A model generated the notes under the pieces. It had not been told where the DNA came from, searched no databases, and was given only the letters and a program-made list of their open reading frames with translations. From a virus: a DNA stretch of 31,152 bases. The first letter of the stretch is position 1. Each line of letters begins with the position of its first letter. Below are positions 1 through 29,194 of the stretch, one piece after another. The position numbers were made by a program, and so were the translations under genes. The DNA lies in the UHGV virus genome UHGV-1981267; one strand, 5' to 3'.

Positions 1-3000
1 CAGTACGCCGGTGCTGGACAGTGAGGGGAATACCAACATCTCCGGCGTCACGGTGGTGTTCCGGGCCGGTGAGCAGGAGCAGTCACCGCCGGAGGGATTT
101 GAATCCTCCGGCTCCGAGACAGTGCTGGGTACGGAAGTGAAATATGACACGCCGATCACCCGGACCATCACGTCGGCAAACATCGACCGTCTGCGCTTTA
201 CCTTCGGTGTACAGGCACTGGTGGAAACCACCTCAAAGGGGGACCGGAATCCGTCGGAAGTCCGCCTGCTGGTTCAGATACAGCGTAATGGTGGCTGGGT
301 GACGGAAAAAGACATCACCATTAAGGGCAAAACCACCTCGCAGTATCTGGCCTCGGTGGTGGTGGATAACCTGCCGCCGCGCCCGTTCAATATACGGATG
401 CGCAGGATGACGCCGGACAGCACCACAGACCAGCTGCAGAACAAAACGCTCTGGTCGTCATACACCGAAATCATCGATGTGAAACAGTGCTACCCGAACA
501 CGGCACTGGTCGGCGTGCAGGTGGATTCGGAGCAGTTCGGCAGCCAGCAGGTGAGCCGTAATTATCATCTGCGCGGGCGCATTCTGCAGGTGCCGTCGAA
601 CTATAACCCGCAGACGCGACAATACAGCGGTATCTGGGACGGAACGTTTAAACCGGCATACAGCAACAACATAGTCTGGTGTCTGTGGGATATGCTGACC
701 CATCCGCGCTACGGCATGGGGAAACGTCTTGGTGCAGCGGATGTGGATAAATGGGCGCTGTATGTCATCGGCCAGAATTGCGACCAGTCAGTGCCGGATG
801 GCTTTGGCGGCACGGAGCCGCGCATTACCTGTAATGCGTACCTGACCACACAGCGCAAGGCGTGGGATGTGCTCAGTGATTTTTGCTCGGCGATGCGCTG
901 TATGCCGGTATGGAACGGGCAGACGCTGACGTTCGTGCAGGACCGACCATCAGATAAGGTGTGGACCTATAACCGCAGTAATGTGGTGATGCCGGATGAT
1001 GGCGCGCCGTTCCGCTACAGCTTCAGCGCCCTGAAGGACCGCCATAATGCCGTTGAGGTGAACTGGATTGACCCGGATAACGGCTGGGAGACGGCGACAG
1101 AGCTTGTGGAGGACACGCAGGCCATTGCCCGTTACGGTCGTAACGTCACGAAGATGGATGCCTTTGGCTGTACCAGTCGGGGGCAGGCACACCGCGCCGG
1201 GCTGTGGCTGATTAAAACAGAACTGCTGGAAACGCAGACCGTGGATTTCAGCGTCGGCGCAGAAGGGCTTCGCCATGTACCGGGCGATGTTATTGAAATC
1301 TGTGATGATGACTATGCCGGTATCAGCACCGGTGGTCGTGTGCTGGCGGTGAACAGCCAGACCCGGACGCTGACGCTCGACCGTGAAATCACGCTGCCAT
1401 CCTCCGGTACCACGCTGATAAGCCTGGTTGACGGAAGTGGCAATCCGGTCAGCGTGGAGGTTCAGTCCGTCACCGACGGCGTGAAGGTAAAAGTGAGCCG
1501 TGTTCCTGACGGTGTTGCTGAATACAGCGTATGGGGGCTGAAGCTGCCGACGCTGCGCCAGCGACTGTTCCGCTGCGTGAGTATCCGTGAGAACGATGAC
1601 GGCACGTATGCCATCACCGCCGTGCAGCATGTGCCGGAAAAAGAGGCCATCGTGGATAACGGGGCGCACTTTGACGGCGAACAGAGTGGCACGGTGAATG
1701 GTGTCACGCCGCCAGCGGTGCAGCACCTGACCGCAGAAGTCACTGCAGACAGCGGGGAATATCAGGTGCTGGCGCGATGGGACACACCGAAGGTGGTGAA
1801 GGGCGTGAGCTTTATGCTTCGCCTGACCGTGGCAGCGGATGACGGCAGTGAGCGGCTGGTCAGCACGGCCCGGACGACGGAAACCACATACCGCTTCAGG
1901 CAGCTGGCGCTGGGAAGCTACAGGCTGACAGTCCGGGCGGCAAATGCCTGGGGGCAGCAGGGCGATCCTGCATCGGTATCGTTCCGGATTGCCGCACCGG
2001 CAGCGCCGTCGCGGATTGAGCTGACGCCGGGCTATTTTCAGATAACCGCCACGCCCCATCTTGCCGTTTATGATCCGACGGTACAGTTTGAGTTCTGGTT
2101 CTCGGAAAAGCGGATTGCGGATATCAGGCTGGTTGAAACTACAGCCCGCTATCTTGGCACGGCGCTGTACTGGATAGCTGCCAGTATCAATATCAAACCG
2201 GGCCATGATTATTATTTTTACATCCGCAGTGTGAACACCGTTGGCAAATCGGCATTTGTGGAGGCTGTCGGTCGGGCGAGCGATGATGCCGAAGGTTACC
2301 TGGATTTTTTCAAAGGCCAGATAACCGAATCCCATCTCGGTAAAGAGCTGCTGGGAAAAGTCGAGTTGACGGAGGATAACGCCAGCAAACTGGAGGAGTT
2401 TTCGAAAGAGTGGAAAGATGCCAACGATAAATGGAATGCCATGTGGGGCGTCAAAATTGAGCAGACCAAAGACGGCAAACATTATGTCGCGGGTATTGGC
2501 CTCAGCATGGAGGACACGGAGGAAGGTAAACTGAGCCAGTTCCTGGTTGCCGCTAACCGTATCGCGTTTATTGACCCGGCAAACGGGAATGAAACGCCGA
2601 TGTTTGTGGCGCAGGGCAACCAGATATTCATGAACGACGTGTTCCTGAAGCGCCTGACGGCCCCCACCATTACCAGCGGCGGTAATCCTCCGGCATTTTC
2701 CCTGACACCGGACGGGCGGCTGACGGCGAAAAATGCCGATATCAGCGGTAACGTGAATGCGAACTCCGGGACGCTCAACAACGTCACGATTAACGAGAAC
2801 TGCCGGGTTCTGGGAAAACTGTCCGCGAACCAGATTGAAGGCGATCTCGTTAAAACAGTGGGCAAAGCTTTCCCCCGTGACTCCCGGGCACCGGAGCGGT
2901 GGCCATCAGGGACCATTACCGTCAGGGTTTATGACGATCAGCCGTTTGACCGGCAAATTGTTATTCCGGCTGTGGCATTCAGTGGCGCTAAGCATGAGAG

Positions 3001-3978: not shown

Positions 3979-6363
3979 GTGGATATGGCAGCAGTAAAAA
4001 TCTCAGGTGTGCTGAAAGATGGTGCGGGAAAACCAATACAGAACTGCACTATTCAACTGAAGGCAAAGCGTAACAGCACCACGGTACTGGTGAACACGGT
4101 GGCCTCTGAAAATCCGGATGAAGCCGGGCGTTACAGCATGGACGTTGAGTATGGTCAGTACAGCGTCATCCTGTGGATTGAGGGTTCTCAGCCATCACAT
4201 GTTGGGACCATTACCGTCTATGAAGGTTCCAGTCCGGGGACGCTGAATGATTTTCTCGGTGCCATGACGGAAGATGATGTCATGCCGGAGGCATTGCGCC
4301 GTTTTCAGGCAATGGTGGAAGAAGCGGCACGCAACGCCGAAGCCGCCTCTCAGAGCGCAGCGGCGGCAAAGAAATCCGAAACTGCAGCGGCATCATCGAA
4401 GAACGCGGCGAAAACCTCAGAAACGAATGCAGCTAATAGTGCACAGGCGGCAGCGACCTCAAAGACTGCATCGGCAAACTCCGCGACAGCAGCCAAAAAA
4501 TCAGAAACCAACGCGAAAAATAGCGAGACAGCCGCAAAGACGAGCGAAACCAACGCAAAGTCCAGCCAGACGGCAGCGAAAACCAGCGAAACGAATGCCA
4601 AAGCCAGTGAAACTGCGGCGAAAAACAGCCAGGATGCAGCGGCCCAAAGCGAGAGTGCCGCAGCTGGTTCTGCAAGTGCGGCGGCTTCTTCTGCCACTGC
4701 ATCAGCCAACAGTCAAAAAGCTGCAAAAACCAGCGAAACTAACGCAAAGTCCAGCCAGACGGCAGCGAAGACCAGCGAAACGAATGCCAAAGCCAGCGAA
4801 ACTGCGGCGAAAAACAGTCAGGATGCAGCAGCCCAAAGCGAGAGTGCCGCAGCCAGTTCTGCAAGCGCGGCGGCTGCTTCTGCCACTGCATCAGCCAACA
4901 GTCAAAAAGCAGCAAAAACCAGTGAAACCAACGCAAAGGTGAGCGAAACAGCGGCTGCGAACTCAGCGAAAGCATCGGCAGCAAGCCAGACGGCAGCTAA
5001 AGCAAGCGAAGATGCAGCCAGAGAGTACGCAAGCCAGGCTGCGGAGCCGTATAAATATGTCTTACAGCCGCTGCCTGATGTGTGGATACCATTTAACGAT
5101 TCACTGGATATGATTACGGGCTTTTCGCCATCTTATAAAAAGATTGTTATTGGTGACGACGAAATAACGATGCCTGGTGACAAGGTGGTTAAGTTTAAAC
5201 GCGCATCAAAAGCAACTTACATTAATAAATCGGGTGTGCTGACAGAGGCTACCATTGACGAGCCACGATTTGAACGTGATGGCCTGCTTATTGAGGGGCA
5301 AAGAACGAACTTCTTCCCGAACAGTACAGACCCTTCGAAGTGGAATAAGTCAACTTCACTGGACGTTACAGAAACAGGCACAGATAGTTTCGGTTTTAAT
5401 TATGGCCGGTTTGTCGTACAGGATTCGATTGTTGGTACAAGTAAAGCGCATACCATTATCGGACTGTATTCGAGTACCGGAGGGGTTGATACTTCAGGGG
5501 ACGAAAAGTATGTAACTATATCCTGTCGGGTAAAAAGTGAAGTTGATAATATCGACGTTCGTATTTTATTTGAACATTATGATGGGGAGGTAAGGACATC
5601 AATAGGAACAGCAAGCCTGAACCTTACCACCCGCATAATTAGCAAGACAGGTCAGACAAGCCGTGTTACAGCAAGGTCTGTTAAGGATGATGCAACTGGC
5701 TGGATATTTTTTGAGGCTACATTAAAAGCAGATACAACAGAAAATACGGTTGGTGGTTTCGTCCAGTATTCTCCGGATACAGGTCAGATGGTGGCATCAG
5801 GGGATTGTCTCGATGTAACCACTCCCCAGATTGAGGCTGGTACAGGCGCATCATCTTTTATTGTTACGGGGGCTGCACCGGTAACGCGGGCAAGCGATAT
5901 AGTTACAGTCCCAATTAAGAATAATCTTTATAATCTACCTTTTACGGTTCTTTGTGAGGTACATAAGAACTGGTATAAAACGCCAAATGCAGCACCGCGT
6001 GTTTTTGATACCGGCGGTTATCAAACCGGAGCGGCTATTATTCTTGGCTTCGGTCGTTCAACAGATTACGACGGATTTCCTTATTGCGATATTGGTGGGG
6101 CTAACAGGCGGATAAACGAAAATGCATCGCTTGAAAAAATGGTTATGGGGATGCGTGTAAAGTCAGATCAGTCTACATGCGCAGTAAGTAACGGGCGTAT
6201 ATCCAGCGAAACAAAAACCACATGGTCCTGTATTCAGAACTCCGCAATTATCCGTATTGGAGGCCAGACTACAGCCGGTTTACGCCATTTATTTGGTCAT
6301 GTCAGGAATTTCAGAATATGGCACAAAGCATTGACTGATGCTCAGGTGGGGGAGTTAATCTAA
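3979..6363 (+). CDS. stf: Side tail fibre protein, mosaic: lambda Stf-like N-terminus, Ala/Ser/Thr-rich repeat shaft, unrelated C-terminal domain
   Basis: N-terminus MAVKISGVLKDGAGKPIQNCTIQLKAKRNSTT... closely matches recalled lambda Stf. Centre has KTSETNAK-type repeats. C-terminal ~400 aa is unlike lambda Stf. Confidence 0.85.
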   Translation: MDMAAVKISGVLKDGAGKPIQNCTIQLKAKRNSTTVLVNTVASENPDEAGRYSMDVEYGQYSVILWIEGSQPSHVGTITVYEGSSPGTLNDFLGAMTEDDVMPEALRRFQAMVEEAARNAEAASQSAAAAKKSETAAASSKNAAKTSETNAANSAQAAATSKTASANSATAAKKSETNAKNSETAAKTSETNAKSSQTAAKTSETNAKASETAAKNSQDAAAQSESAAAGSASAAASSATASANSQKAAKTSETNAKSSQTAAKTSETNAKASETAAKNSQDAAAQSESAAASSASAAAASATASANSQKAAKTSETNAKVSETAAANSAKASAASQTAAKASEDAAREYASQAAEPYKYVLQPLPDVWIPFNDSLDMITGFSPSYKKIVIGDDEITMPGDKVVKFKRASKATYINKSGVLTEATIDEPRFERDGLLIEGQRTNFFPNSTDPSKWNKSTSLDVTETGTDSFGFNYGRFVVQDSIVGTSKAHTIIGLYSSTGGVDTSGDEKYVTISCRVKSEVDNIDVRILFEHYDGEVRTSIGTASLNLTTRIISKTGQTSRVTARSVKDDATGWIFFEATLKADTTENTVGGFVQYSPDTGQMVASGDCLDVTTPQIEAGTGASSFIVTGAAPVTRASDIVTVPIKNNLYNLPFTVLCEVHKNWYKTPNAAPRVFDTGGYQTGAAIILGFGRSTDYDGFPYCDIGGANRRINENASLEKMVMGMRVKSDQSTCAVSNGRISSETKTTWSCIQNSAIIRIGGQTTAGLRHLFGHVRNFRIWHKALTDAQVGELI
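4552..4945 (+). repeat. In-frame tandem duplication, 189-bp unit x2 plus partial third copy, inside stf
   Basis: Unit 4552..4740 and unit 4741..4929 are near-identical by eye (63-aa repeat KSSQTAAKTSETNAKASETAAKNSQDAAAQSESAAA...), with a partial copy following. Confidence 0.8.
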
Positions 6364-7797: not shown

Positions 7798-7826
7798 TAT
7801 CCCCTGCGATGCAGGGGATATTTCTT
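7798..7826. terminator. Bidirectional hairpin between convergent genes
   Basis: Perfect 10-bp stem TATCCCCTGC / GCAGGGGATA with 3-nt loop. T-rich on plus side (TTTCTT). Sits between the plus-strand membrane-protein gene and the sopB 3' end. Confidence 0.5.
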
Positions 7827-8790
7827 AATTATCAGTAGATTGTTCCTCTAGTAACAACTCAATTCTGCTTAGTATTTCTTTAGATATTTTTCGGCTATCA
7901 ATTTTTATAGTTACAAAATTACCTTTATATCTAGCCGTGATCCCTTCCCCATATTTTTTCTCGTCTTTTGTTTTTTCCTCGTCGCCAACTAGAACAGAGT
8001 CAGATAATATTTGTATAATCCGTGAAGCTTCTAAATCCTCGCCGTTTTTTTTAATTGCCAGAAGATGATGAGCAGCATTGCTCATGGCAGTCATGTTTTT
8101 TTTGTAGACCTTAAACAAAGAATCTCCAGCACGAGCTGACAGTTCTCCTGGATGATTGAAGATAGCTAATATATCTTTTGGTAGACCAGCTGTATTAATA
8201 CAGCGAGTGATAATATTTCTGTCTATATTTTCAGCCTCGGCTAATGCTTTAACGTTACCATCAAAGTCATTTAGCTTGCGTAAGTATCTCTTTCCTCTTT
8301 CGTATGCACTAATAGGCCTATAATCGTTACCAATTTGGGATAACCAATGCATCTGTTCATCGTCGAGATCACCTATTAAGACGCGATAGTCACATCCTGT
8401 TAATATCGCTGCTTTTCTTCTACGTGAGCCGTCAGCGACTTCAACGACTCCAGACACTTTTCTGGCGAAAGCTGGATTTTGTTGTCCAGACGTTAGAAAA
8501 GATGGGATTAAATCGGCTAGAGAGGATTCATTTAATAAATCTTGATCGCGTTCATTACCTAGCCATACCATTGTTGCCATTTCAACTTTATCTGCGGGAA
8601 TTGTCTCTAACTTAAAGTTAACATTACGTCCGCATACTGGCAAAGTTATGCTGTTACCGGTTAATGAACTCAGTTGACGTTTTAAATCACCAACCATAGG
8701 TGATACGGGCTGATGTTCAGGGGCATGATGATTATTACTCATAATGCGATTAATATCTGGAGCATTTTTTAGAAGAGAGCGCTGTTTCAT
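7825..8790 (-). CDS. sopB: Partition protein SopB (ParB family)
   Basis: 321 aa. Blocks match recalled F SopB (ITLPVCGR, GNERDQ, IPSFL-GQQ-PAF, ADGSRRRKAA, GNDYRP-SAYERG). Start overlaps sopA stop. Confidence 0.9.
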   Translation of the reverse strand: MKQRSLLKNAPDINRIMSNNHHAPEHQPVSPMVGDLKRQLSSLTGNSITLPVCGRNVNFKLETIPADKVEMATMVWLGNERDQDLLNESSLADLIPSFLTSGQQNPAFARKVSGVVEVADGSRRRKAAILTGCDYRVLIGDLDDEQMHWLSQIGNDYRPISAYERGKRYLRKLNDFDGNVKALAEAENIDRNIITRCINTAGLPKDILAIFNHPGELSARAGDSLFKVYKKNMTAMSNAAHHLLAIKKNGEDLEASRIIQILSDSVLVGDEEKTKDEKKYGEGITARYKGNFVTIKIDSRKISKEILSRIELLLEEQSTDN

Positions 8791-9956
8791 TATTCGTTCT
8801 CCCAGCGAGGTTTTATTAGATCATCAAAAATTTCTCGGCAAACAGGGTCCCATATAGAAACAGCATTTCTCCATGCATTCAATGTTGAACGTTGGTTTGC
8901 TGCTTGTTCAAATACTGTTCTCATTTTTATCTGGCCTTTACCTACTTCATCGGTAACGCGTACAACCTGACGTAATACCATTGATCCCCATGTATTTCTT
9001 ATTTGTTCTTCCATCCATCGTGATTGATTCCCTGTAGTGAGACTATATTTAGTCAGAAGTAAGCGAACGGTTGGCTCAAATCCACCTAGGTCAACGCTTT
9101 CCAATAGATCGAGAAGCATTGTGAAAAACTGTAGAACAGAAGCGTAATCAAATAATTCTGCAGGTGTAGCAACAACAATAACGTCAGCGGCACAAACAAC
9201 GTTAATGGTTCCTGTACCGAGGTTCGGAGCACTATCTATAACGATAACATCGTAGTTATCCCAAACTGATTCAATAGCTGCGCGCAGCATAAGGTGTGGA
9301 GGATGAGGCAATTTACCCTGAGCATGATATTGCATGAGATCTGTTTCTATACGATGTAAAGCTAGGCAGCTAGGGATAATGTCTAGCCCAGGCCAACATG
9401 TTGGCTTTATAGCATATTCAGCGTTATCGCGTTCTCCTAAGTAAAATGGCAGTAAAGTATCCTCGGCATGGATATGTAAATCAGGAACATAACCGTGATA
9501 CATAGAGGCCGTGCCTTGAGGATCGTTACCTTCAACCAAAAGAACACGATGACCTTGTAATGCTAACCATTGAGCTTGATGTACCGCAGACGATGTTTTA
9601 TAAACGCCGCCTTTGTGTGACATAACGGCAAGCACAACAGGGTTTTTATCTTGTGGTCGTTGGTTTGGGTTGCCAAAAACTGCTCGCATACTGTTGATTT
9701 GATCTATGGTATAACCAGCACGACGTTCAATTCTTCCTCTCATTTCAAAGTCAGGTGCAGGTAAACGCCCGCTCTTCTCAGCATCTCTAATTGCTTGAGG
9801 AGTTACACCAATTAAATCTGCTACTTCAGTTATACCCCATCGGCGGGTGATACGCCGAGCTTCAGGACTATCATCACCGAATTGAGCGATAGCAATTGCT
9901 TGGGTCATTTCTTGACCTCTCGTAACACAATCTTGCAATAACTTTTTCAAAGACAT
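8790..9956 (-). CDS. sopA: Partition ATPase SopA (ParA family)
   Basis: 388 aa with deviant Walker A (KGGVYKTS). N-terminal HTH region. Same length as F SopA. Confidence 0.92.
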   Translation of the reverse strand: MSLKKLLQDCVTRGQEMTQAIAIAQFGDDSPEARRITRRWGITEVADLIGVTPQAIRDAEKSGRLPAPDFEMRGRIERRAGYTIDQINSMRAVFGNPNQRPQDKNPVVLAVMSHKGGVYKTSSAVHQAQWLALQGHRVLLVEGNDPQGTASMYHGYVPDLHIHAEDTLLPFYLGERDNAEYAIKPTCWPGLDIIPSCLALHRIETDLMQYHAQGKLPHPPHLMLRAAIESVWDNYDVIVIDSAPNLGTGTINVVCAADVIVVATPAELFDYASVLQFFTMLLDLLESVDLGGFEPTVRLLLTKYSLTTGNQSRWMEEQIRNTWGSMVLRQVVRVTDEVGKGQIKMRTVFEQAANQRSTLNAWRNAVSIWDPVCREIFDDLIKPRWENE

Positions 9957-18400: not shown

Positions 18401-19450
18401 GATTTCATAGCCAGTCCGCAGGCCGGTATTCCCTTTTCCTTCTGTAGCTGATTTCCGGTCATTATCCAGTGCGCAGGTGATTTTTGCCGCCGGGTACATG
18501 TTTACCAGTTGTTCCACAACATGAACCATGTTGTTAGCGGATACAGCGACAACCACAGCGTCAAAGCGTTTATCTTTTTTCGTGGCAAGCCAGATGGATG
18601 CACCAGTAGCAAAACCTTCTGTAACAGCGATGTTTTGCGCCCCTTTCAGCTCACCGATAACAAAGCAGGCACCGACGAAATCGCCGCTGGTTACGGCGCT
18701 GGTCTGGTATTTTCCACCTTGTTTGTCGATTCGCTGCCAACCAACAATACGACCATCGTAACGACCGTCCAGGTGAGCCAGAGGGATAGACATATACGTG
18801 GTTGGCCCCCTGCTCCATTTTGCGCTGTCGTGACTGGTCACGCGACGCACATCACACGAATTAAAAACGTCACGAATACCTTTTTTAATCGCATATGGCC
18901 ATGAGCCGTCTTCTGCAGGAGCATGTTCCCAAGCACTGTGGAATGCCAGCCATCCCAGCAAACGTTCATGGTCCATTTGGTTGTTTTTCAGGTCATTAAT
19001 TCGTTTTTGTTCTTCACGGCGACGACGTGCTTCGGCCTGACGTTCTATTCTTGCCCGTTCTTCTTCCGGTTGTGCGACCACGGTCGCATTATTCCGTTGT
19101 TGCTCACGGCGATATTCAGAAAACAGGAAGGAGAAACCGCTCCATGAGCCAGCATCGCTGCCTTTATGGACGAAGTTAATGAACGGGTAATCAATCCCTT
19201 TGCTGTGTTCCAGCCGGGAGTAAATTTCTACGCGTCCTTTGAGGCTCTTCTCGAGAGCTTCTGGAGATGTTTTATTGTATGAAGAGTAACGCTCAACACC
19301 CCCGCGAGGGTTGAGTTGGATGTTGTCGGAACAGGCAGACCAGTTGATACCAGCCATCTGTGCCAGCTCGGTTAGTTCATCCCGTGCTGCTTCAATTAGC
19401 GAGAACGGATCGCTGCCAAAGCGATCCGCATAGAAATCGTTTAATGTCAT
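15455..19450 (-). CDS. repA: Replication protein RepA (primase plus helicase, N15 RepA-like)
   Basis: 1331-aa ORF. Walker A GMGSGKS in the central helicase region. Size and position next to cB as in N15. Confidence 0.9.
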   Translation of the reverse strand: MTLNDFYADRFGSDPFSLIEAARDELTELAQMAGINWSACSDNIQLNPRGGVERYSSYNKTSPEALEKSLKGRVEIYSRLEHSKGIDYPFINFVHKGSDAGSWSGFSFLFSEYRREQQRNNATVVAQPEEERARIERQAEARRRREEQKRINDLKNNQMDHERLLGWLAFHSAWEHAPAEDGSWPYAIKKGIRDVFNSCDVRRVTSHDSAKWSRGPTTYMSIPLAHLDGRYDGRIVGWQRIDKQGGKYQTSAVTSGDFVGACFVIGELKGAQNIAVTEGFATGASIWLATKKDKRFDAVVVAVSANNMVHVVEQLVNMYPAAKITCALDNDRKSATEGKGNTGLRTGYEILSKFNDVRCVYPTFEDDPQMECSDFNDLHKLRGLRETARQLFATANRLKTGTDLLSLTLNRLKTIKRDNRRTFAKELLRAVDIGMLTCPVPNSPSDLFNMFCIVLREIGLENIYRATVKDHIARRLNKKCRIAQAPRSFSERITDPNKRPQHITYKRFETSVMTDDVLKYVQSLQGIVIVRAGMGSGKSTGLLRPLMHSSERGISVAHRVSLIGGLWEMMTEGKGVKADILHYQDPGYQEMAPYASKLTICINSIVKNCWQPLMRQHDYFGFDEATQGLRAVLSGRAMENPVAVFNTLIDALARTEQHPIMVDADANDLLVDLAELAMKRREELGLPAWLQIHVIELPVDLRNRETGEPIRVFYTEKDRIMTEVVKAVSNGEKIMLATDSSTFAEDVTATLRMHFPGKKFLCVNQKNKPEPEVEAFTNQPKKMVKKYDGLIYSPSISSGVSIEQKHFDRHFGMFCGEVVPSDAVQMLRRDRTAKEFIIGFDKARAKRETDPQKIERAFAQALLATAGMNGELTDVVFDGDRISMGVANTDFTRMKIKAAAIEASARNDYASNMICIMHSDGYKVSPLATDYAANDIGKDLRKEARDIVWEQTLDLHLNTETPQESEREELLKKRALTLEEQAKLVRWDIENELKLPVEEGTLKFYFDGARDKIRRYETMLLDEVTARRYDREEAAINFTYAYRQAGQWQYFVVTAMTREQADDVFKTKFLGIIDYKVKATPTVEVGARGFYALKSATLRQYFIDCGINPETMTGEATQERLKFARDNLMTAERRDLLNNVLHIGGFMTPKGKPKVPEALFKNICDSLGLKTGKRRGRDGDKRPTLRFVEPESAAFMLDILAQRQKDGLTLKTRKAEKTAIEMDRDLDLNIYMDDKTRSTNEQVQNAPHSVISEALAVLPVVVPESWAMSALSGEELATMSSWSSASIAMTFASLYLTEFMDHLSSNELRRLREYITGNSPCSYEEQGAFYG
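15736..15786. other. Candidate replication origin element inside the repA 3' region
   Basis: Inverted repeat TGGATCGCG ... CGCGATCCA flanking the AT tract CATATATATATT. Three GATC sites within about 50 bp. Confidence 0.35.
19073..19088. other. sopC-like centromere palindrome (inside repA coding sequence)
   Basis: TGCGACCACGGTCGCA: 7-bp inverted arms with 2-bp spacer. One base per arm different from the F sopC core TGGGACC-AC-GGTCCCA as recalled. Confidence 0.7.
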
Positions 19451-20383: not shown

Positions 20384-20605
20384 ATGAAACCAGAAGAACT
20401 TATTCGCCATTTTGGCAGTGTAGAAAAAGCAGCGGCAGGGGTAGGTGTAACACCCGGAGCTGTTTACCAATGGTTAACCGCTGGAGAGATTCCTTCATTG
20501 CGGCAAAGCGATATTGAAGTTCGTACTGCTTATAAGCTGAAGAGTGACTTTACAACTCGGCGGGTAAAGCAGTCGATTAAGGAGAGTCGTAAGCGTGGAG
20601 CTTGA
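20384..20605 (+). CDS. cro: Cro-like HTH regulator
   Basis: ATG at 20384 gives MKPEELIRHFGSVEKAAAGVGVTPGAVYQWL... (HTH). No SD and a -10 hexamer just upstream suggest a leaderless mRNA. Track ORF begins at TTG 20357. Confidence 0.7.
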   Translation: MKPEELIRHFGSVEKAAAGVGVTPGAVYQWLTAGEIPSLRQSDIEVRTAYKLKSDFTTRRVKQSIKESRKRGA

Positions 20606-21305
20606 GTATATACGCAGCTGCGTCTCTACGGCATTGGCTGATGTTCATTATCGCCAGCGTGGCATTCTGGAGGTCCAGCTTGAGCAGATGCGTCTCGGTA
20701 GGTCAGGACGGTTTAACAATAAACCAGTCTGGTCAATCAGTGTGGGGGATGATAACTCATACGAAGTGTCCGTTCCTGCTGAGCCGGTTAGATTCCACCA
20801 GGGGAAAACATTTAAACAATCATCAATGTTGCTCACTGATATTGATTTTCAGAGCGCCAGCTGGCGCAGGGCTATTGGTCAGTTGAATAACGAGGAATCA
20901 GCCTGGCTTTATTATTGCTACGGATGCAAGCCTGATTACAACAATGATGTGATTGTTTGTCAGTGGTTATGGCTTGATTTTCTGGTTGCTCATTCGGGGG
21001 GCGGCTTTAAAAAAATGAAGGCCTCCACGAAAAAAGCCATGCGGAAATTGATTTATTACGCGGCACAGCAGGTTAAATCAGAACTTACGTGTGCTGAAGC
21101 AGTTGATGAGAGAGAACAGGACAGGCATCTGAGTTTTCTACTGAATATATCTATTGATAGCTGGAGACAAGATTATAAAGAGCGCTGGCTTTTAATTAAG
21201 TCGCGATGTCTGAGCTTAAATCGAACTGCATTATTAAATGCGGCGGAGAAGCGCAGTGAAATCATCAAACGCCATCGGGCAGGAAGTGCCATTCTGCCTT
21301 TGTAA
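20595..21305 (+). CDS. Possible late-gene antiterminator (Q-like), otherwise hypothetical
   Basis: 236-aa ORF with GTG start overlapping the cro stop. Cys cluster YYCYGC...C. Position after cro as recalled for N15 Q. No sequence match could be verified. Confidence 0.4.
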   Translation: MELEYIRSCVSTALADVHYRQRGILEVQLEQMRLGRSGRFNNKPVWSISVGDDNSYEVSVPAEPVRFHQGKTFKQSSMLLTDIDFQSASWRRAIGQLNNEESAWLYYCYGCKPDYNNDVIVCQWLWLDFLVAHSGGGFKKMKASTKKAMRKLIYYAAQQVKSELTCAEAVDEREQDRHLSFLLNISIDSWRQDYKERWLLIKSRCLSLNRTALLNAAEKRSEIIKRHRAGSAILPL

Positions 21306-21312
21306 ACAAGTT

Positions 21313-21558
21313 ATGTTCAGGAAACCGTCGAAGCCAGAATTAAGGTATTCGGGGGTAAGAAATGAATATGTTATCTGGTGTCCAACTTGTGGTTACAGGA
21401 CACGACCAGATAGTAATAAGCAGTCTGTAATTGCCGATTGGTATTTATCAAATCAGCCAGGTAATAAGCATATAGAAAATCTTTGGATTAAGCGTTACTT
21501 GGAAATCAGAGAGGGTGCGACCGTGGTCGCACAAGAAAATGAAAATAACGCCATTTAA
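21313..21558 (+). CDS. Small zinc-ribbon protein
   Basis: Internal ATG of track ORF 21238..21558. CPTCGY motif. Contains a sopC-like site at its 3' end. Confidence 0.4.
   Translation: MFRKPSKPELRYSGVRNEYVIWCPTCGYRTRPDSNKQSVIADWYLSNQPGNKHIENLWIKRYLEIREGATVVAQENENNAI
21516..21531. other. sopC-like centromere palindrome
   Basis: TGCGACCGTGGTCGCA. Confidence 0.7.
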
Positions 21559-25260: not shown

Positions 25261-25425
25261 ATTATAGCCTCCACATCCATAAAATACACCAAAACAAGAA
25301 AACAATGTAAATTAAAAATTTCACTAAAAAGCGAAAAATAACACTGGATGTGTTCGTTTGGCAGAGTTACAGTTCGTGTCATTGAGGGGCAATAACCCAC
25401 TAACTATATGAATTTGGAGGATATT

Positions 25426-25647
25426 ATGAATTATCAAGGTAACGAAAAAATGCGCGACGACGTTGCGGAGATAGCTAACGAACTGTATGAGTTGTGGCAG
25501 AAGGTTGAACGTTTCGAAAAGGAATATGGTTTCAACAGTACCAACCTGGCAGACCGACTGGCTGGTCGCTTAGTTGGGACTATGGGGCCAAAACTGGCTG
25601 AGTTGAACCGCTTTATGGCTGATGTTGATTTCCAGTTTCAAGATTGA
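25426..25647 (+). CDS. Hypothetical protein
   Basis: ATG at 25426 with SD GGAGG (25416..25420). Track ORF begins at 25408. Confidence 0.5.
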   Translation: MNYQGNEKMRDDVAEIANELYELWQKVERFEKEYGFNSTNLADRLAGRLVGTMGPKLAELNRFMADVDFQFQD

Positions 25648-25660
25648 TTAGAGAGGCGTT

Positions 25661-25888
25661 ATGAATATTAATGAAATTCGTGGAAATATGACTGAAGCGG
25701 CCCTGAGTGTGGAATGTGTTATGCGTGGATACCCACGCATTTCCCTGAAAGAGTTAAGCGAAGCCTGTTTTTTGAGTCAAGCTGCCGTTGAATTTATCAT
25801 CGAACAGATGATCTGTTTTGGGGTTGCAAAGCGTAGCGGGTCTGGTCGATATTCTTTGACCGATGAATATAAGCAGGCAACTTTCTAA
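25661..25888 (+). CDS. Hypothetical protein
   Basis: 75-aa ORF closely following the previous gene. Confidence 0.45.
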   Translation: MNINEIRGNMTEAALSVECVMRGYPRISLKELSEACFLSQAAVEFIIEQMICFGVAKRSGSGRYSLTDEYKQATF

Positions 25889-25894
25889 AAACTG

Positions 25895-25910
25895 TGCGAC
25901 CACGGTCGCA
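25895..25910. other. sopC-like centromere palindrome
   Basis: TGCGACCACGGTCGCA, within the longer palindrome CTGTGCGACCACGGTCGCACAG. Confidence 0.7.
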
Positions 25911-25930
25911 CAGCACAAAAACGAAAAAGC

Positions 25931-25960
25931 TTGGCAAAATTACGGTTTTTAGTTATTGTT
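25931..25960 (+). promoter_or_regulatory. Candidate sigma70 promoter (possible late promoter)
   Basis: TTGGCA (25931..25936), 18-bp spacer, TATTGT (25955..25960). Followed closely by hairpins and a terminator. Confidence 0.35.
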
Positions 25961-25997
25961 TTGTTAAGTTGGGTTTTTTGTACCCAACAGCCAACAA

Positions 25998-26022
25998 GCC
26001 GCCTTTATGGCGGTTTTTTTGT
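25998..26022 (+). terminator. Intrinsic terminator downstream of the candidate promoter (tR'-like)
   Basis: Stem GCCGCC / GGCGGT, loop TTTAT, then a 7-T run. A second hairpin GTTGGG...CCCAAC lies at 25968..25988. Confidence 0.6.
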
Positions 26023-26110
26023 GCCTGAAAAGTGGGCGCAGGACAAGTTGCAGCTTGTCCTGCGGTCAACCCATGCCAGAGCTATAGGCTGAACCTAAAG
26101 CCCACCCGCG

Positions 26111-27232
26111 ATGCGCATCGCCGGGTTAGCTTACCCAGGCAAAAAAATAATAGCTATGTTCAAAACCACTAATATTCATGGCGCGCAACTCGTTTGCGCA
26201 GATTCTCTGCAATTTATCAAAACCATCCCTGATAACTCGGTCAATTTGATTGCAACAGACCCACCATACTTCGGCGTAAAGGCTAACGCATGGGATAACC
26301 AGTGGGATAGCGATGCTGACTTTTTGGGGTGGATTGATGAATTTTTGGCAGAATTTTGGCGGATATTGGCCCCTAATGGCAGCCTGTATATGTTTACCGG
26401 CTCTCGCCTTGCGTCAAAAATTGAATTATTAACTCGCGACCGTTTCAATGTTCTGAACCATATCATTTGGGCTAAACCCAGTGGTATGTGGCGCGGTTGT
26501 CATAAAGAAAGTTTAAGGGCTTATTTTCCTGCCACTGAAAGAATATTATTTGCAGAGCATTACGGCGCGTCAGGTTATGCTAAAGGTCAGTCAGGTTATG
26601 CTTCAAAATGTGCAGATTTAAGAAAAAATATTTTTTCTCCACTAATTGATGCTTTTTCGCTGGCTCGCCGTCAGTTAGATATATCAGCCGCAGACATTAA
26701 TTCAGCAACAGGAAAGCAGATGTGTTCGCACTGGTTTTCTTATTCGCAGTGGCGGCTTCCATCATTAAGTGATTTTAATAAACTATGCGAATTATTTCGC
26801 AGGAAGGCAGATTCACTCGGTGTCCCGTGTCCATATCCTTTTAATGTTGATTATTCAGAACATGAAAAGCGTTATAGCGATCTGAAATTGCGTTATGAGG
26901 AAGTAAAGAAGCAGTATGATGATTTGAAGGCTCAGTATGAAAATTTGCGCCGCCCATTTCATGTTACTGCTGATGTACCTTATACCGATGTATGGGAGTT
27001 TCCTCCTGTGCAATATTATCCTGGCAAGCACCCATGTGAAAAACCTGCAGCGATGATGGAACATATTATAAAAAGTAGTTCCCGCCCCGGAGATATCGTT
27101 GCCGATTTCTTTATGGGATCAGGCTCTACTATTAAAGCCGCGCTGAAGTTAGGTCGTCAGGCAATCGGTATTGAGATTGAGGGTGAACGTTATCTTCAGA
27201 CAGTTGATGAAGTGAAAAAGTTATTTGAGTAA
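26111..27232 (+). CDS. DNA methyltransferase, likely N6-adenine (beta-class amino-MTase)
   Basis: DPPY motif near the N-terminus (LIATDPPYFG). FxGxG-type AdoMet motif near the C-terminus (DFFMGSGST). Alternative start ATG 26156. Confidence 0.8.
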   Translation: MRIAGLAYPGKKIIAMFKTTNIHGAQLVCADSLQFIKTIPDNSVNLIATDPPYFGVKANAWDNQWDSDADFLGWIDEFLAEFWRILAPNGSLYMFTGSRLASKIELLTRDRFNVLNHIIWAKPSGMWRGCHKESLRAYFPATERILFAEHYGASGYAKGQSGYASKCADLRKNIFSPLIDAFSLARRQLDISAADINSATGKQMCSHWFSYSQWRLPSLSDFNKLCELFRRKADSLGVPCPYPFNVDYSEHEKRYSDLKLRYEEVKKQYDDLKAQYENLRRPFHVTADVPYTDVWEFPPVQYYPGKHPCEKPAAMMEHIIKSSSRPGDIVADFFMGSGSTIKAALKLGRQAIGIEIEGERYLQTVDEVKKLFE

Positions 27233-28914: not shown

Positions 28915-28934
28915 AAATCTCTTTGTTTCTCGTG

Positions 28935-28950
28935 TGCGACCGTGGTCGCA
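28935..28950. other. sopC-like centromere palindrome
   Basis: TGCGACCGTGGTCGCA. Confidence 0.7.
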
Positions 28951-28961
28951 CATTAAATACC

Positions 28962-29138: not shown

Positions 29139-29154
29139 CATGTATTCAGGAGCG

Positions 29155-29170
29155 TGCGACCGTGGTCGCA
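29155..29170. other. sopC-like centromere palindrome
   Basis: TGCGACCGTGGTCGCA. Confidence 0.7.
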
Positions 29171-29194
29171 CGGTATCTTTGTCAGGAGGTTTTG

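What the first reader, a model, noticed from the sequence alone, without database searches (positions are those of the whole stretch)
25889..26110. Candidate late promoter followed by hairpins and a terminator, directly after a centromere site
Between the accessory genes and the methyltransferase/lysis block there is a sigma70-like promoter (TTGGCA, 18-bp spacer, TATTGT), followed within about 40 nt by a hairpin and a strong intrinsic terminator. This resembles a lambdoid PR'/qut/tR' unit that gives a short transcript unless Q modifies polymerase. A sopC-like palindrome lies about 20 bp upstream of the -35. Further palindromes (26041..26060, 26105..26125) follow.
Basis: inference. Interest (0 to 1): 0.4.

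Follow-up and report, generated by a model that had tools for sequence, protein, structure and literature searches.

The report
N15-type late promoter and terminator
This is the late-gene switch of an N15-like linear plasmid-prophage (a SopB centromere site, a sigma-70 promoter and an early terminator that the phage Q protein must override), already described in phage N15 and so ordinary; the hairpins behind the terminator belong to a separate conserved RNA leader of phage methylase genes that matches no Rfam family.

Summary
Only two details change: the promoter spacer is 17 bp, not 18, and the palindromes are slightly longer than reported.

The window is an N15-like telomere phage, 100% identical here to Escherichia phages YDC107_1 and PhiR46_1. 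The region is 83.6% identical to N15 41124-41391. There GenBank annotates the -35, the -10 and a rho-independent terminator. In phiKO2 the same layout is annotated as 'plasmid partitioning site / putative late promoter / terminator'.

The palindrome core equals the N15 SopB sites IR1/IR4 and sits where N15 has IR3. The gene at 20595-21305 is a Q82-family antiterminator (PF06323).

Across 36 relatives the following are fixed, while neutral sites in the next gene are saturated:
- IR to -35 spacing of 20-21 bp (PY54, re-read by eye, 9 bp);
- -35 and -10 hexamers;
- a second -10-like hexamer plus GG (TA[ATC]GTTGG) 5 nt after the -10, as in lambda PR';
- a 5' hairpin;
- the terminator stem and its T7 run.

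New here: the two downstream palindromes are not part of that unit. They belong to a covarying plus-strand leader that sits directly 5' of DPPY methylase genes in many phages and matches no Rfam family.

The parts
25892..25913 (.). SopB-binding centromere-type inverted repeat, equivalent to N15 IR3 (16-bp core TGCGACCACGGTCGCA at 25895-25910).
   Evidence: Perfect 10+10 palindrome. The core is identical to N15 IR1/IR4 and aligns with the N15 IR3 oligo. There are 5 copies in the window against 0.01 expected. It matches the F sopC site TGGGACCACGGTCCCA at 14 of 16 positions. Spacing to the -35 is 20-21 bp in all 36 related sequences as scored by the script; for PY54 that score used a mis-assigned -35, and my own reading gives 9 bp.
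25931..25959 (+). Late promoter, equivalent to N15 p52: -35 TTGGCA (25931-25936), 17-bp spacer, -10 TATTGT (25954-25959). Predicted start near 25966.
   Evidence: Consensus scan. The hexamers fall on the positions annotated as -35/-10 signals in N15 and phiKO2. TTGGCA and TATNNT are kept in 35 relatives, and PY54 has TTGCAA-17-TAAAAT (PY54 read by me). The start site itself is inferred, not mapped.
25965..25973 (+). Second -10-like hexamer plus GGG (TAAGTTGGG): candidate sigma-dependent pause element, the core of a qut site.
   Evidence: TA[ATC]GTTGG is present in all 36 related sequences, always 5 nt after the -10. The arrangement matches lambda PR' AACGAT-GGG, 6 nt after its -10. Q82-family lambdoid phages carry TTTGATATGTTG downstream of their promoters. 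The definition of such pause elements is from PMC9191641. Pausing itself was not tested.
25968..25988 (+). 5' hairpin of the late transcript (GTTGGGT / ACCCAAC).
   Evidence: MFE fold. All 12 sequence variants are more stable on the + strand, and the non-Watson-Crick pairs are 16 G.U against 0 A.C.
25996..26020 (+). Intrinsic terminator T1 (tR'-like). The short transcript would be about 53-56 nt.
   Evidence: Terminator scan: 8-pair stem with 5 G-C pairs, followed by T7. The GGCGG arm and a T7 run are found in 36/36 relatives and the CCGCC arm in 35/36 (L114 has CCGCCA), with 11 different loop sequences. It aligns with the stem-loop annotated as a rho-independent terminator in N15 and phiKO2.
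26026..26155 (+). Conserved structured 5' leader of the DPPY methylase gene. It contains UGAAAAG, helix GUGGG (26032-26036) / CCCAU (26070-26074), hairpin 26037-26064, helix AAGC (26098-26101) / GCUU (26129-26132), and hairpin 26105-26124.
   Evidence: It is 57-91% identical between clades, whereas 4-fold degenerate sites of the next gene are 22-52% identical. The same motif occurs in 55 unique IMG/VR variants, in most followed by a methylase or a Com-like gene. Covariation: 92.4% of cells paired against 80.8% in shuffles, 0/500 shuffles as high. No Rfam match.
26156..27232 (+). First late gene: N6-adenine (DPPY) DNA methylase. The probable true start is ATG 26156.
   Evidence: PF01555, E 1e-46. 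ATG 26156 aligns with the starts in phiKO2, PY54 and the IMG/VR homologues. The PhiR46_1 record starts the CDS at 26111, inside hairpin 3.
20595..21305 (+). Q antiterminator gene (Q82 family), 4.6 kb upstream of the promoter.
   Evidence: PF06323, E 1.2e-82. 66% identical to N15 Q. No solved homologue.
21515..21532 (.). SopB site downstream of Q, equivalent to N15 IR2.
   Evidence: Exact match to GTGCGACCNNGGTCGCAC. That N15 IR2 lies downstream of Q is from my memory of Ravin et al. 2008.
7825..9956 (-). sopB (7825-8790) and sopA (8790-9956): the proteins that act on the inverted repeats.
   Evidence: PF18090 SopB HTH, E 7e-25; ParA-type ATPase domains.

Best explanation
The region is the late-gene control module of an N15-like linear plasmid-prophage and is orthologous to IR3-p52-terminator of phage N15.

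Proposed mechanism:
1. Host sigma-70 RNA polymerase starts at the promoter TTGGCA-17-TATTGT, near 25966.
2. The transcript begins with a 7-bp hairpin.
3. Without Q, transcription ends at the intrinsic terminator at 25996-26020, giving an RNA of about 55 nt.
4. A second -10-like hexamer with a GGG discriminator (TAAGTTGGG) lies at the very start of the transcribed region, as in lambda PR'. It most likely holds sigma-containing polymerase in a promoter-proximal pause.
5. During that pause the Q82-family protein encoded 4.6 kb upstream loads onto the polymerase and makes it terminator-resistant.
6. Transcription then runs into the methylase, lysis and virion genes.
7. The palindrome centred near -63.5 is a SopB centromere site. 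In N15, SopAB acting on the site after Q (IR2) and on this site (IR3) raises late expression.

Shown here: sequence features, homology, conservation and gene identities. Inferred: the start site, the pause, Q loading and the Sop effect.

The two palindromes after the terminator are a different element, namely a structured plus-strand leader that travels with the methylase gene.
For: Identity of the phage and the region:
- 100% identical to two N15-like phages.
- 83.6% identical to N15 41124-41391, where the -35, -10 and a rho-independent terminator are annotated. phiKO2 annotates a partitioning site, a putative late promoter and a terminator in the same order.

Context genes: SopA/SopB, protelomerase, RepA, CI-like repressor, Cro, Q (PF06323), methylase, holin, lysozyme and Rz. 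Terminase genes follow further downstream in the identical PhiR46_1 record.

Centromere sites: the IR core is identical to N15 IR1/IR4 and aligned with IR3.

Conservation over 36 sequences:
- IR to -35 spacing of 20-21 bp;
- TTGGCA in 35 sequences;
- TA[ATC]GTTGG 5 nt after the -10;
- T1 GGCGG arm and T7 run invariant (CCGCC arm in 35 of 36), with 11 different loops.

Selection: the segment between IR and -10 is 73-91% identical (46-52% against PY54, whose Q is only 30% identical), and +1..T1 is 70-84%. Four-fold degenerate sites in the adjacent methylase gene are 22-52% identical.

Strand: hairpin 1 uses G.U pairs only on the + strand (16:0).

Geometry: lambda PR' has the same layout. Q82-family lambdoid phages have the homologous TTGCAA promoter, a TATGTT element and an early terminator next to Q.

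Distribution: in 16 of 5426 complete E. coli genomes, always on plasmids.

From memory of the abstract of Ravin, Rech & Lane 2008 (reference listed): Northern and lacZ data confirmed p52, Q antitermination, terminators between p52 and the first ORF, and reduced late expression in ir3 mutants.
Against: - No experiment or transcript data exist for this phage.
- The bare promoter match (9/12) is at chance level in this A+T-rich stretch, and TAWGTTGGG alone is not rare in the window.
- The Q gene is 4.6 kb away rather than adjacent as in lambdoid phages.
- The pause element sits at a lambda-like position (5 nt after the -10), not at the 12-14 nt seen in lambdoid Q82-family phages. It is therefore not certain that a Q82-type protein uses it the same way.
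- I know no defined Q-binding element for this family, so none could be tested.
- The key N15 paper could not be read.
- T1 could also serve as the terminator of the upstream genes at 25408-25888.
Confidence: 0.85

Rival explanations
1. The promoter-terminator pair is chiefly a small-RNA gene. The roughly 55-nt p52-T1 RNA would itself be a trans-acting regulator made in lysogens, like StxS from PR'-tR' of Stx phages or the prophage anti-sRNAs AgvB/AsxR. This would add to, not replace, the antitermination role.
For: PR' in Stx prophages is constitutively active and its terminated product is a regulatory sRNA (abstract of PMC7547250). Short sRNAs of 51-60 nt are encoded downstream of PR' in lambdoid prophages (PMC4104026). 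The Rfam AgrB model aligns end to end with 25949-26022 at 27.3 bits, E 0.01-0.065. The +1..T1 segment is conserved at 70-84% against 22-52% at neutral sites.
Against: The Rfam score is well below the gathering score of 40. Conservation of hairpin 1 and T1 is already explained by the qut and terminator functions. The single-stranded linker between hairpin 1 and T1 is the most variable part, which is unlike a seed region. No Hfq or target data exist.
Confidence: 0.15
2. The palindromes at 26037-26064 and 26105-26124 are additional terminators or part of the Q-utilisation site, that is, they belong to the antitermination unit.
For: From memory, the N15 abstract speaks of 'two intrinsic terminator-like sequences' after p52. 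Both hairpins are G+C rich and lie in the leader.
Against: Neither is followed by a U run on the + strand. The same two-hairpin element occurs in lambdoid-type phages far from any promoter or terminator, directly after another gene's stop codon and directly 5' of a methylase gene (L212, L238). A scan independent of the promoter found 55 variants, in most followed by a methylase or Com-like gene.
Confidence: 0.1
3. The post-terminator region encodes a minus-strand antisense sRNA of about 90 nt (roughly 26121 to 26027), with a TARGCT -10 and hairpin 26037-26064 as its terminator, convergent with T1.
For: In N15-like clades, hairpin 2 mismatches are all A.C on the + strand, which are G.U on the - strand (14:1). 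Ten of 11 variants are more stable on the - strand. The - strand MFE is lower in 18/18 variants. AGCYTA is invariant. Convergent sRNA pairs downstream of PR' are known.
Against: Base composition explains much of the strand bias: z is only 0.1-2.4 against dinucleotide shuffles. With more families the wobble bias disappears, at A.C 20 against G.U 14. The - strand U tract is only 3-4 nt in most families. AGCYUA is explained as the 3' strand of a + strand helix ARGC/GCYU with a G-C to A-U change and G.U on the + strand. The helix AUGGG/CCCAU has 17 G.U cells on the + strand and none broken.
Confidence: 0.07
4. There is no dedicated late promoter here. T1 is simply the terminator of the upstream accessory genes (25408-25888), and the promoter-like hexamers are chance matches in A+T-rich DNA.
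For: The promoter-like count in the region is at chance level. T1 lies 108 nt after the stop codon at 25888.
Against: The hexamers, their spacing and the second hexamer are conserved in 36 sequences from three clades while neutral sites are saturated. Independent annotators marked the same hexamers in N15 and phiKO2. From memory, N15 p52 was confirmed by reporter and Northern data.
Confidence: 0.05

Closest known systems
Phage N15 late control region: IR3 - p52 - terminator, with Q (gene 40) and IR2 (Ravin et al. 2000 genome annotation, AF064539; Ravin, Rech & Lane 2008, J Bacteriol 190:3538)
   Same: Orthologous: 83.6% identity over 267 bp. The order is the same: gp50, gp51, IR, -35, -10, terminator, methylase. 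The IR core is the same. Both have a Q82-family Q several kb upstream followed by an IR.
   Different: The -10 is TATTGT instead of TATCTT. Hairpin 1 is a perfect 7-bp stem here, against 4 Watson-Crick plus 2 G.U pairs in N15. Q is only 66% identical. The distance from Q to the promoter is 4.6 kb, against about 5.4 kb in N15. There is no experimental work on this phage.
Klebsiella phage phiKO2 'putative late promoter' with 'putative plasmid partitioning site' (AY374448 annotation)
   Same: Same architecture and annotation logic. TTGGCA, TATCGT, TATGTTGGG and T1 are conserved.
   Different: 78.8% identity over only 56% of the query. Related Klebsiella phages carry a tandem duplication of the IR (L005).
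Lambda PR' / qut / tR' (6S RNA)
   Same: Constitutive sigma-70 promoter, a -10-like hexamer plus GGG at +1..+6, and an early intrinsic terminator overridden by Q. The geometry is TTGACT-17-TAAATT-6-AACGAT-GGG against TTGGCA-17-TATTGT-5-TAAGTT-GGG (concept from PMC9191641 and PMC9388147).
   Different: Q belongs to another, non-homologous family (Q82, PF06323, rather than Q-lambda, PF03589). The Q gene is not adjacent. The terminated RNA is about 55 nt against 194 nt. A partition site lies upstream.
Phage 82-type late promoters in lambdoid phages (434, CobraSix, Morganella IME1369_02, Eeyore, Aeromonas pAEv1818)
   Same: Same Q family (24-30% identity). They have a TTGCAA -35 (as in PY54), a TATGTT-type second hexamer and a very early terminator followed by (G/A)T(G/T)CC.
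   Different: The second hexamer lies 12-14 nt after the -10 there and 5 nt here. Q is immediately upstream there. They have no SopB site.
StxS and AgvB/AsxR prophage sRNAs (PMC7547250, PMC4104026; Rfam RF02891)
   Same: Short RNAs made from or near the Q-controlled late promoter of prophages. The two-hairpin shape with a terminator is shared. There is a weak full-length match to the RF02891 model.
   Different: The score is 27.3 bits against the gathering score of 40, so it is not a member. No evidence of trans action.
Mu com-mom post-transcriptional control (for the methylase leader only)
   Same: A DNA-modification gene in a late operon preceded by a structured leader. In some relatives a Com-type zinc-ribbon gene (PF10122, 24.6 bits against cut-off 22.9) lies between the leader and the methylase.
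   Different: The window has no com gene. There is no sequence similarity to the mom leader known to me. The mechanism was not tested.

Membership tests
N15-type late control region (IR3-p52-terminator) | Sequence homology and synteny with N15 41124-41391 (gp51 - IR - promoter - terminator - methylase) | tested here: met
   83.6% identity, E 2e-72. The gene order matches.
N15-type late control region (IR3-p52-terminator) | -35 and -10 hexamers at the annotated N15 positions with a 17-bp spacer | tested here: met
   TTGGCA-17-TATTGT aligns with N15 TTGGCA-17-TATCTT.
N15-type late control region (IR3-p52-terminator) | N15-specific SopB site (GTGCGACC NN GGTCGCAC) about 20 bp upstream of the -35 | tested here: met
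   Exact match at 25894-25911. N15 IR sequences are from PMC7205306. The spacing from the 16-bp core is 20 bp.
N15-type late control region (IR3-p52-terminator) | Intrinsic terminator between the promoter and the first ORF | tested here: met
   25996-26020; the stem and T7 run are invariant in relatives, apart from one base change in one of 36 sequences.
N15-type late control region (IR3-p52-terminator) | Q gene several kb upstream, followed by a second SopB site (IR2) | tested here: met
   Q at 20595-21305. IR at 21515-21532.
N15-type late control region (IR3-p52-terminator) | Promoter activity, Q-dependent read-through, and dependence on IR3/SopAB | not testable with these tools
   Needs reporter fusions and Northern blots. 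Reported for N15 only, and only from my memory of the 2008 abstract.
Lambdoid Q-dependent late promoter (PR'/qut/tR') | A Q protein of one of the three Q families | tested here: met
   PF06323, which is the Q82 family.
Lambdoid Q-dependent late promoter (PR'/qut/tR') | Q gene immediately upstream of the promoter | tested here: not met
   The Q stop is at 21305 and the -35 at 25931, 4.6 kb apart with about 15 ORFs between them.
Lambdoid Q-dependent late promoter (PR'/qut/tR') | Sigma-dependent pause element (-10-like hexamer, often with a discriminator-like GGG) in the initial transcribed region | tested here: met
   This is a sequence-level test only. TAAGTTGGG lies at 25965-25973 and is conserved in 36/36 sequences. 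The definition is from PMC9191641. Pausing itself was not tested.
Lambdoid Q-dependent late promoter (PR'/qut/tR') | Q-binding element | not tested
   I know no consensus for the Q82 family. The conserved TTTTTAG(G/T)TAT in the spacer is only a candidate.
Rfam RF02891 AgrB (AgvB anti-sRNA) | Covariance-model score at or above the gathering score of 40 bits | tested here: not met
   27.3 bits.
F-plasmid sopC centromere | 16-bp SopB site TGGGACCACGGTCCCA in tandem 43-bp repeats | tested here: not met
   The site matches at 14 of 16 positions (G3C and C14G), and the sites are dispersed, not tandem. F SopB does not use N15 sites (PMC7205306). It is sopC-like, not sopC.
Any Rfam family (for the leader at 26026-26155) | A match at E <= 5 with structure | tested here: not met
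   Only sub-threshold hits that look like chance matches, namely ctRNA_pGA1 at 22.9 bits against 45 and MIR5998.

The most novel reading that the evidence does not exclude
The two palindromes after the terminator (26037-26064, 26105-26124), with their conserved flanks UGAAA-RUGGGCG ... AAGGCCCA ... AGCYUA, form an undescribed and widely distributed cis-regulatory RNA leader of phage DPPY N6-adenine methylase genes. It may gate translation or stability of a potentially harmful methylase by switching between alternative pairings (RUGGG:CCCAU or UGGGC:GCCCA; ARGC:GCYU or GCYU:AGGC downstream). In function it would be analogous to Mu com/mom control. It occurs in N15-like and in lambdoid-type phages, sometimes with a Com-type zinc-ribbon gene inserted between the leader and the methylase.
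Probability: 0.4. Interest if true: 0.55.

Novelty: new member of a known kind. Interest (0 to 1): 0.25.

Why it matters
For the finding itself the importance is small. It re-identifies, in an unannotated relative, the N15 late switch in which a plasmid partition system (SopAB and dispersed centromeres) is coupled to Q antitermination.

Its practical value is for annotation:
- current records place a 'hypothetical protein' CDS over the promoter and terminator;
- they start the methylase inside a leader hairpin;
- the N15 reference record starts gene 52 78 codons too late.

The comparative data add two testable points:
- A Q82-family protein here works with a lambda-like pause-element position. 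This bears on the open question of how Q82 loads onto polymerase, which PMC9388147 lists as a priority.
- The SopB site keeps a fixed distance from the -35: 20-21 bp, or 9 bp in PY54, a difference of one helical turn.

The methylase leader motif, if it is a real riboregulator, would be a new phage RNA family.

Tried and rejected
1. Minus-strand sRNA. It was proposed from the wobble bias in hairpin 2. It was then weakened by the shuffle control and by the wider families and plus-strand covariation.

2. Genome-contig scan with TAGNTATNNTTTTNNTANGTTGG. The pattern carried too little information: 80 loci, nearly all chance hits in A+T-rich genomes. Only Pseudocitrobacter (L016) and one further locus (L060) were real.

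3. A Janthinobacterium match with a similar -10 and terminator (L022). The upstream gene is a PEP-CTERM protein, not Q, so this was treated as chance.

4. The ORF at 25931-26092 (53 aa, TTG start), annotated in PhiR46_1. It spans the promoter, hairpin and terminator and is not conserved as a reading frame, so it was rejected.

5. Rfam hits (AgrB, ctRNA_pGA1, Trp_leader, RNAI, isrK, RyhB). All are below their gathering scores.

6. Reading Ravin et al. 2008 and Ravin & Lane 1999. They are not held, and no open paper describing p52 was found.

7. A simple maximum-compatibility fold of alignment A4 on both strands. It was too noisy, because MAFFT does not align the hairpins structurally.

8. A TNYG pause-site motif downstream of TAAGTT. 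By eye it is not conserved between clades, so it was dropped.
Full report
What the window is. The 801 bases around the finding are 100% identical to Escherichia phage YDC107_1 (CP025712) and PhiR46_1 (PV340565). The window encodes SopB and SopA, a protelomerase, a 1331-aa RepA-like primase, a CI-like repressor, Cro, a Q antiterminator, a DNA methylase, a holin, a lysozyme and Rz. That is the gene set and order of the N15 group of linear plasmid-prophages. The 311-bp core of the finding occurs in 16 of 5426 complete E. coli genomes, always on plasmids, and in 210 PLSDB plasmids, mostly from Klebsiella.

Check of the observation. Every feature is present.
- The palindrome CTGTGCGACC/GGTCGCACAG lies at 25892-25913.
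- TTGGCA (25931-25936) and TATTGT (25954-25959) are separated by 17 bp, not 18.
- A 7-bp hairpin lies at 25968-25988.
- A canonical intrinsic terminator has its stem at 25996-26016 and a T7 run to 26020.
- Palindromes lie at 26037-26064 and 26105-26124.

Taken alone, the promoter match is not above chance: 8 promoter-like sites in 3 kb against 5.7 expected. The palindrome clearly is: 5 copies of GTGCGACCNNGGTCGCAC (at most 1 mismatch) in the window against 0.01 expected.

Homology with known annotation. In distant mode the region matches N15 41124-41391 at 83.6% identity. There the GenBank record carries a -35 signal, a -10 signal and a 'putative rho-indep. transcription terminator' upstream of gene 52, the methylase. 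phiKO2 carries 'putative plasmid partitioning site', 'putative late promoter' (-35, -10) and 'terminator' in the same order. The annotated N15 hexamers TTGGCA and TATCTT align column for column with TTGGCA and TATTGT of the window. The oligonucleotides used by Lane's group for the four N15 centromere sites (PMC7205306 Table 4) show two things: the window's core equals N15 IR1/IR4, and the aligned N15 site is IR3. The F sopC site is TGGGACCACGGTCCCA (PMC3597684). The window's site differs from it at two symmetric positions, so it is 'sopC-like' but of N15 specificity. The other copies lie at 19072 (in repA, one mismatch), at 21515 (210 bp after Q, the IR2 position), and at 28934 and 29154.

The antiterminator. 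The ORF at 20595-21305 matches PF06323 over its whole length, E 1e-82. PF06323 is the Q82 family, one of three unrelated Q families (PMC9388147). The ORF is 66% identical to N15 Q and 24-30% identical to Q of phage 434, Gifsy-1 and other lambdoid phages. It has no solved homologue.

Comparative anatomy. A pattern scan of IMG/VR and GTDB, together with annotated phages, gave 36 distinct sequences of the region from three clades: N15/window, Klebsiella phiKO2-like, and Yersinia PY54. In these sequences:
- the distance from the 16-bp IR core to the -35 is 20 or 21 bp in all 36 as scored by the script;
- TTGGCA is invariant in 35;
- the -10 is TATNNT;
- exactly 5 nt later comes TA[A/T/C]GTTGG;
- the terminator starts 28-31 nt after that;
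- its GGCGG arm and a run of exactly seven T are invariant in all 36 (the CCGCC arm in 35), while its loop has 11 different sequences.

PY54 was misaligned at first. Read by eye, it is TTGCAA-17-TAAAAT-5-TAAGTTGGC, with an F-type IR (TGGGACCATGGTCCCA) only 9 bp from the -35, which is one helical turn closer. Hairpin 1 is kept through G.U pairs on the + strand only (16 G.U, 0 A.C) and is more stable on the + strand in 12 of 12 variants. It is therefore an RNA hairpin of the rightward transcript.

As a neutral yardstick, 4-fold degenerate sites in the first 190 codons of the adjacent methylase gene are 22-52% identical between clades. The stretch between IR and -10 is 73-91% identical (46-52% against PY54, whose Q is only 30% identical), and +1..T1 is 70-84%. 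The module is under purifying selection. The part most likely to hold a Q-specific site diverges together with Q.

Mechanistic reading. Lambda PR' reads TTGACT-17-TAAATT-6-AACGAT-GGG. [quoted passage not shown] The window reads TTGGCA-17-TATTGT-5-TAAGTT-GGG. Lambdoid phages with Q82-family proteins (434, CobraSix, Morganella IME1369_02, Eeyore, Aeromonas pAEv1818) show TTGCAA-17..19-(-10)-12..14 nt-TTTGATATGTTG, followed by a very early terminator. The Klebsiella N15-like phages have TTTTGTATGTTG at the equivalent place.

I therefore read TAAGTTGGG as the pause-inducing core of a qut site, with these steps:
1. Polymerase starts near 25966.
2. Sigma re-engages the second hexamer.
3. Q loads onto the paused complex.
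4. The modified complex ignores T1.
5. Without Q, a roughly 55-nt RNA is released.

The start site, the pause and Q loading are inferences. The motif alone is not rare in the window.

From my memory of its abstract, the N15 study (Ravin, Rech & Lane 2008; the reference is visible but the paper is not held) showed the following by Northern and lacZ fusions:
- p52 is the late promoter;
- the Q analogue antiterminates;
- terminators lie between p52 and the first ORF;
- ir2 and ir3 mutants lyse late;
- Q plus IR2 plus SopAB in trans stimulate ir3+-p52::lacZ.

The fixed spacing from IR to -35, changed by one helical turn in PY54, fits a position-dependent action of SopB bound at about -63.5. It does not show what that action is.

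The downstream palindromes are something else. The 130 nt between T1 and the conserved methylase start (ATG 26156) are the best conserved non-coding part: window against N15 91%, and phiKO2 against PY54 80%, against 42% and 26% at neutral sites.

I first suspected a convergent minus-strand sRNA. In N15-like phages hairpin 2 has only A.C mismatches on the + strand, and the - strand folds better in 18 of 18 variants. Controls removed most of this:
- dinucleotide shuffles show the same bias from composition (z 0.1-2.4);
- the - strand U tract is 3-4 nt in most families;
- with more families the wobble bias vanishes (A.C 20 against G.U 14).

Methylase homologues fetched from IMG/VR showed the same element in lambdoid-type phages. 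There it follows another gene's stop codon and has no promoter or terminator next to it (L212, L238). An independent scan for TGAAATGGGCG-N60-90-AAGGCCCA returned 76 loci and 55 unique variants; by my rough estimate about 14 would be expected by chance. In most of them the next ORF is one of two kinds. Either it is a DPPY methylase starting 45-54 nt after AAGGCCCA, or it is a short zinc-ribbon peptide. One such peptide, from the L193 family, passes the Pfam Mu-Com model (PF10122, 24.6 bits against cut-off 22.9).

On 20 diverse sequences RNAalifold predicts three helices: RUGGG/C(C/U)C(A/G)U enclosing hairpin 2, hairpin 2 itself, and ARGC/GCYU enclosing hairpin 3. The numbers are:
- 92.4% of cells paired against 80.8% in shuffles (0/500 as high);
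- covariation score 0.392 against 0.202 (0/500);
- 28-47% paired when the partners are slid.

The first helix is 100% paired, with 17 G.U cells on the + strand. The third shows a G-C to A-U change plus G.U on the + strand. That explains the invariant AGCYTA, which I had first read as a minus-strand -10. No Rfam family matches.

I conclude that 26026-26155 is a plus-strand structured leader belonging to the methylase gene. Its function is unknown. My best guess is post-transcriptional control of a potentially harmful methylase, which has no Shine-Dalgarno sequence at ATG 26156.

Comparison and novelty. The finding is an orthologue of a described system (N15 IR3-p52-terminator-Q). It passes every sequence-level membership test for that system. 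As a lambdoid PR'/qut unit it differs in two ways: Q is not adjacent, and a Q82-family protein is combined with a lambda-like pause-element position. The weak full-length match of the p52-T1 RNA to the AgvB model (27.3 bits against 40) and the StxS precedent leave open that the short RNA has a role of its own. The main finding is therefore ordinary for a specialist. The methylase leader is the only part that may be new.

Noticed in passing
window 26026-26155; also L159, L212, L238, L193, L227, L235, L185 and L242-L317: A conserved structured plus-strand leader (UGAAA-RUGGGCG, hairpin, CCCAU, small hairpin, AAGGCCCA, hairpin, AGCYUA) sits directly 5' of DPPY methylase genes in N15-like and lambdoid-type phages. 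There are 55 unique variants in IMG/VR, covariation support, and no Rfam family.
   Followed up: yes
window 26111 against 26156; L002 (N15 record positions 41387 against 41621): The methylase start looks mis-annotated. PhiR46_1 starts the CDS at 26111, inside hairpin 3, whereas all relatives align at ATG 26156. In N15 the ORF is open from 41387 and includes the DPPY motif, but GenBank gene 52 starts at 41621, 78 codons later.
   Followed up: partly
window 25931-26092: PhiR46_1 annotates a 53-aa 'hypothetical protein' (TTG start) that spans the promoter, hairpin 1, terminator T1 and hairpin 2. It is almost certainly not a gene.
   Followed up: yes
window 19072-19089, 21515-21532, 28934-28951, 29154-29171: There are four more N15-type SopB sites: one inside repA with one mismatch, one after Q, and two only 220 bp apart downstream of the lysis genes. 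N15 is described as having four sites in all; this phage has five.
   Followed up: partly
L005 (Klebsiella phage 48ST307), about 40-50 bp upstream of the aligned IR; also L060, L090, L111, L119: Klebsiella N15-like phages carry a tandem duplication of the SopB site upstream of the late promoter (CTGTGCGACCACGGTCGCACAG ... CTGTGCGACCGTGGTCGCATAG).
   Followed up: no
L006 (PY54), L228, L232, L184: The palindrome upstream of the late promoter changes specificity class between phages. It is GCGACC in N15-like phages; GGGACC (identical to F sopC) in PY54, L228 and L232; and GGGGCC (GTGGGGCCATGGCCCCAC) in L184. In PY54 it lies 9 bp from the -35 instead of 20-21 bp.
   Followed up: partly
L193, L227, L233, L235, L242, L267, L275, L287, L294, L304, L308: In some phages a 36-51-aa Com-like zinc-ribbon gene (MTLLKELRCPHCNKLL...KCSRCK; PF10122 at 24.6 bits for one of them) lies between the leader motif and the methylase. 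A GTGCC...GGCAC hairpin lies just before the methylase start. This is reminiscent of Mu com-mom.
   Followed up: partly
L121 (IMGVR_UViG_3300036846_000707), about 4890-5100: In one relative the terminator T1 is interrupted in its loop (AACCGCCTACG|TGAAGTGAACCCC...) by inserted DNA whose first ORF begins MARKKFTPEFKQQVVAHYL. It is probably an insertion sequence, and it would uncouple the late operon from T1.
   Followed up: no
window 25949-26022: The predicted p52-T1 short transcript aligns over the full length of Rfam RF02891 (AgrB/AgvB prophage anti-sRNA) at 27.3 bits. This is below the gathering score of 40.
   Followed up: partly
window 25661-25888: The gp51 homologue just upstream of the SopB site shows weak winged-helix hits (HTH_24, E 0.003; PCI, E 0.0004). 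phiKO2's RefSeq record calls it a winged helix-turn-helix protein. A similar small gene precedes the methylase leader in Morganella-type lambdoid phages.
   Followed up: no
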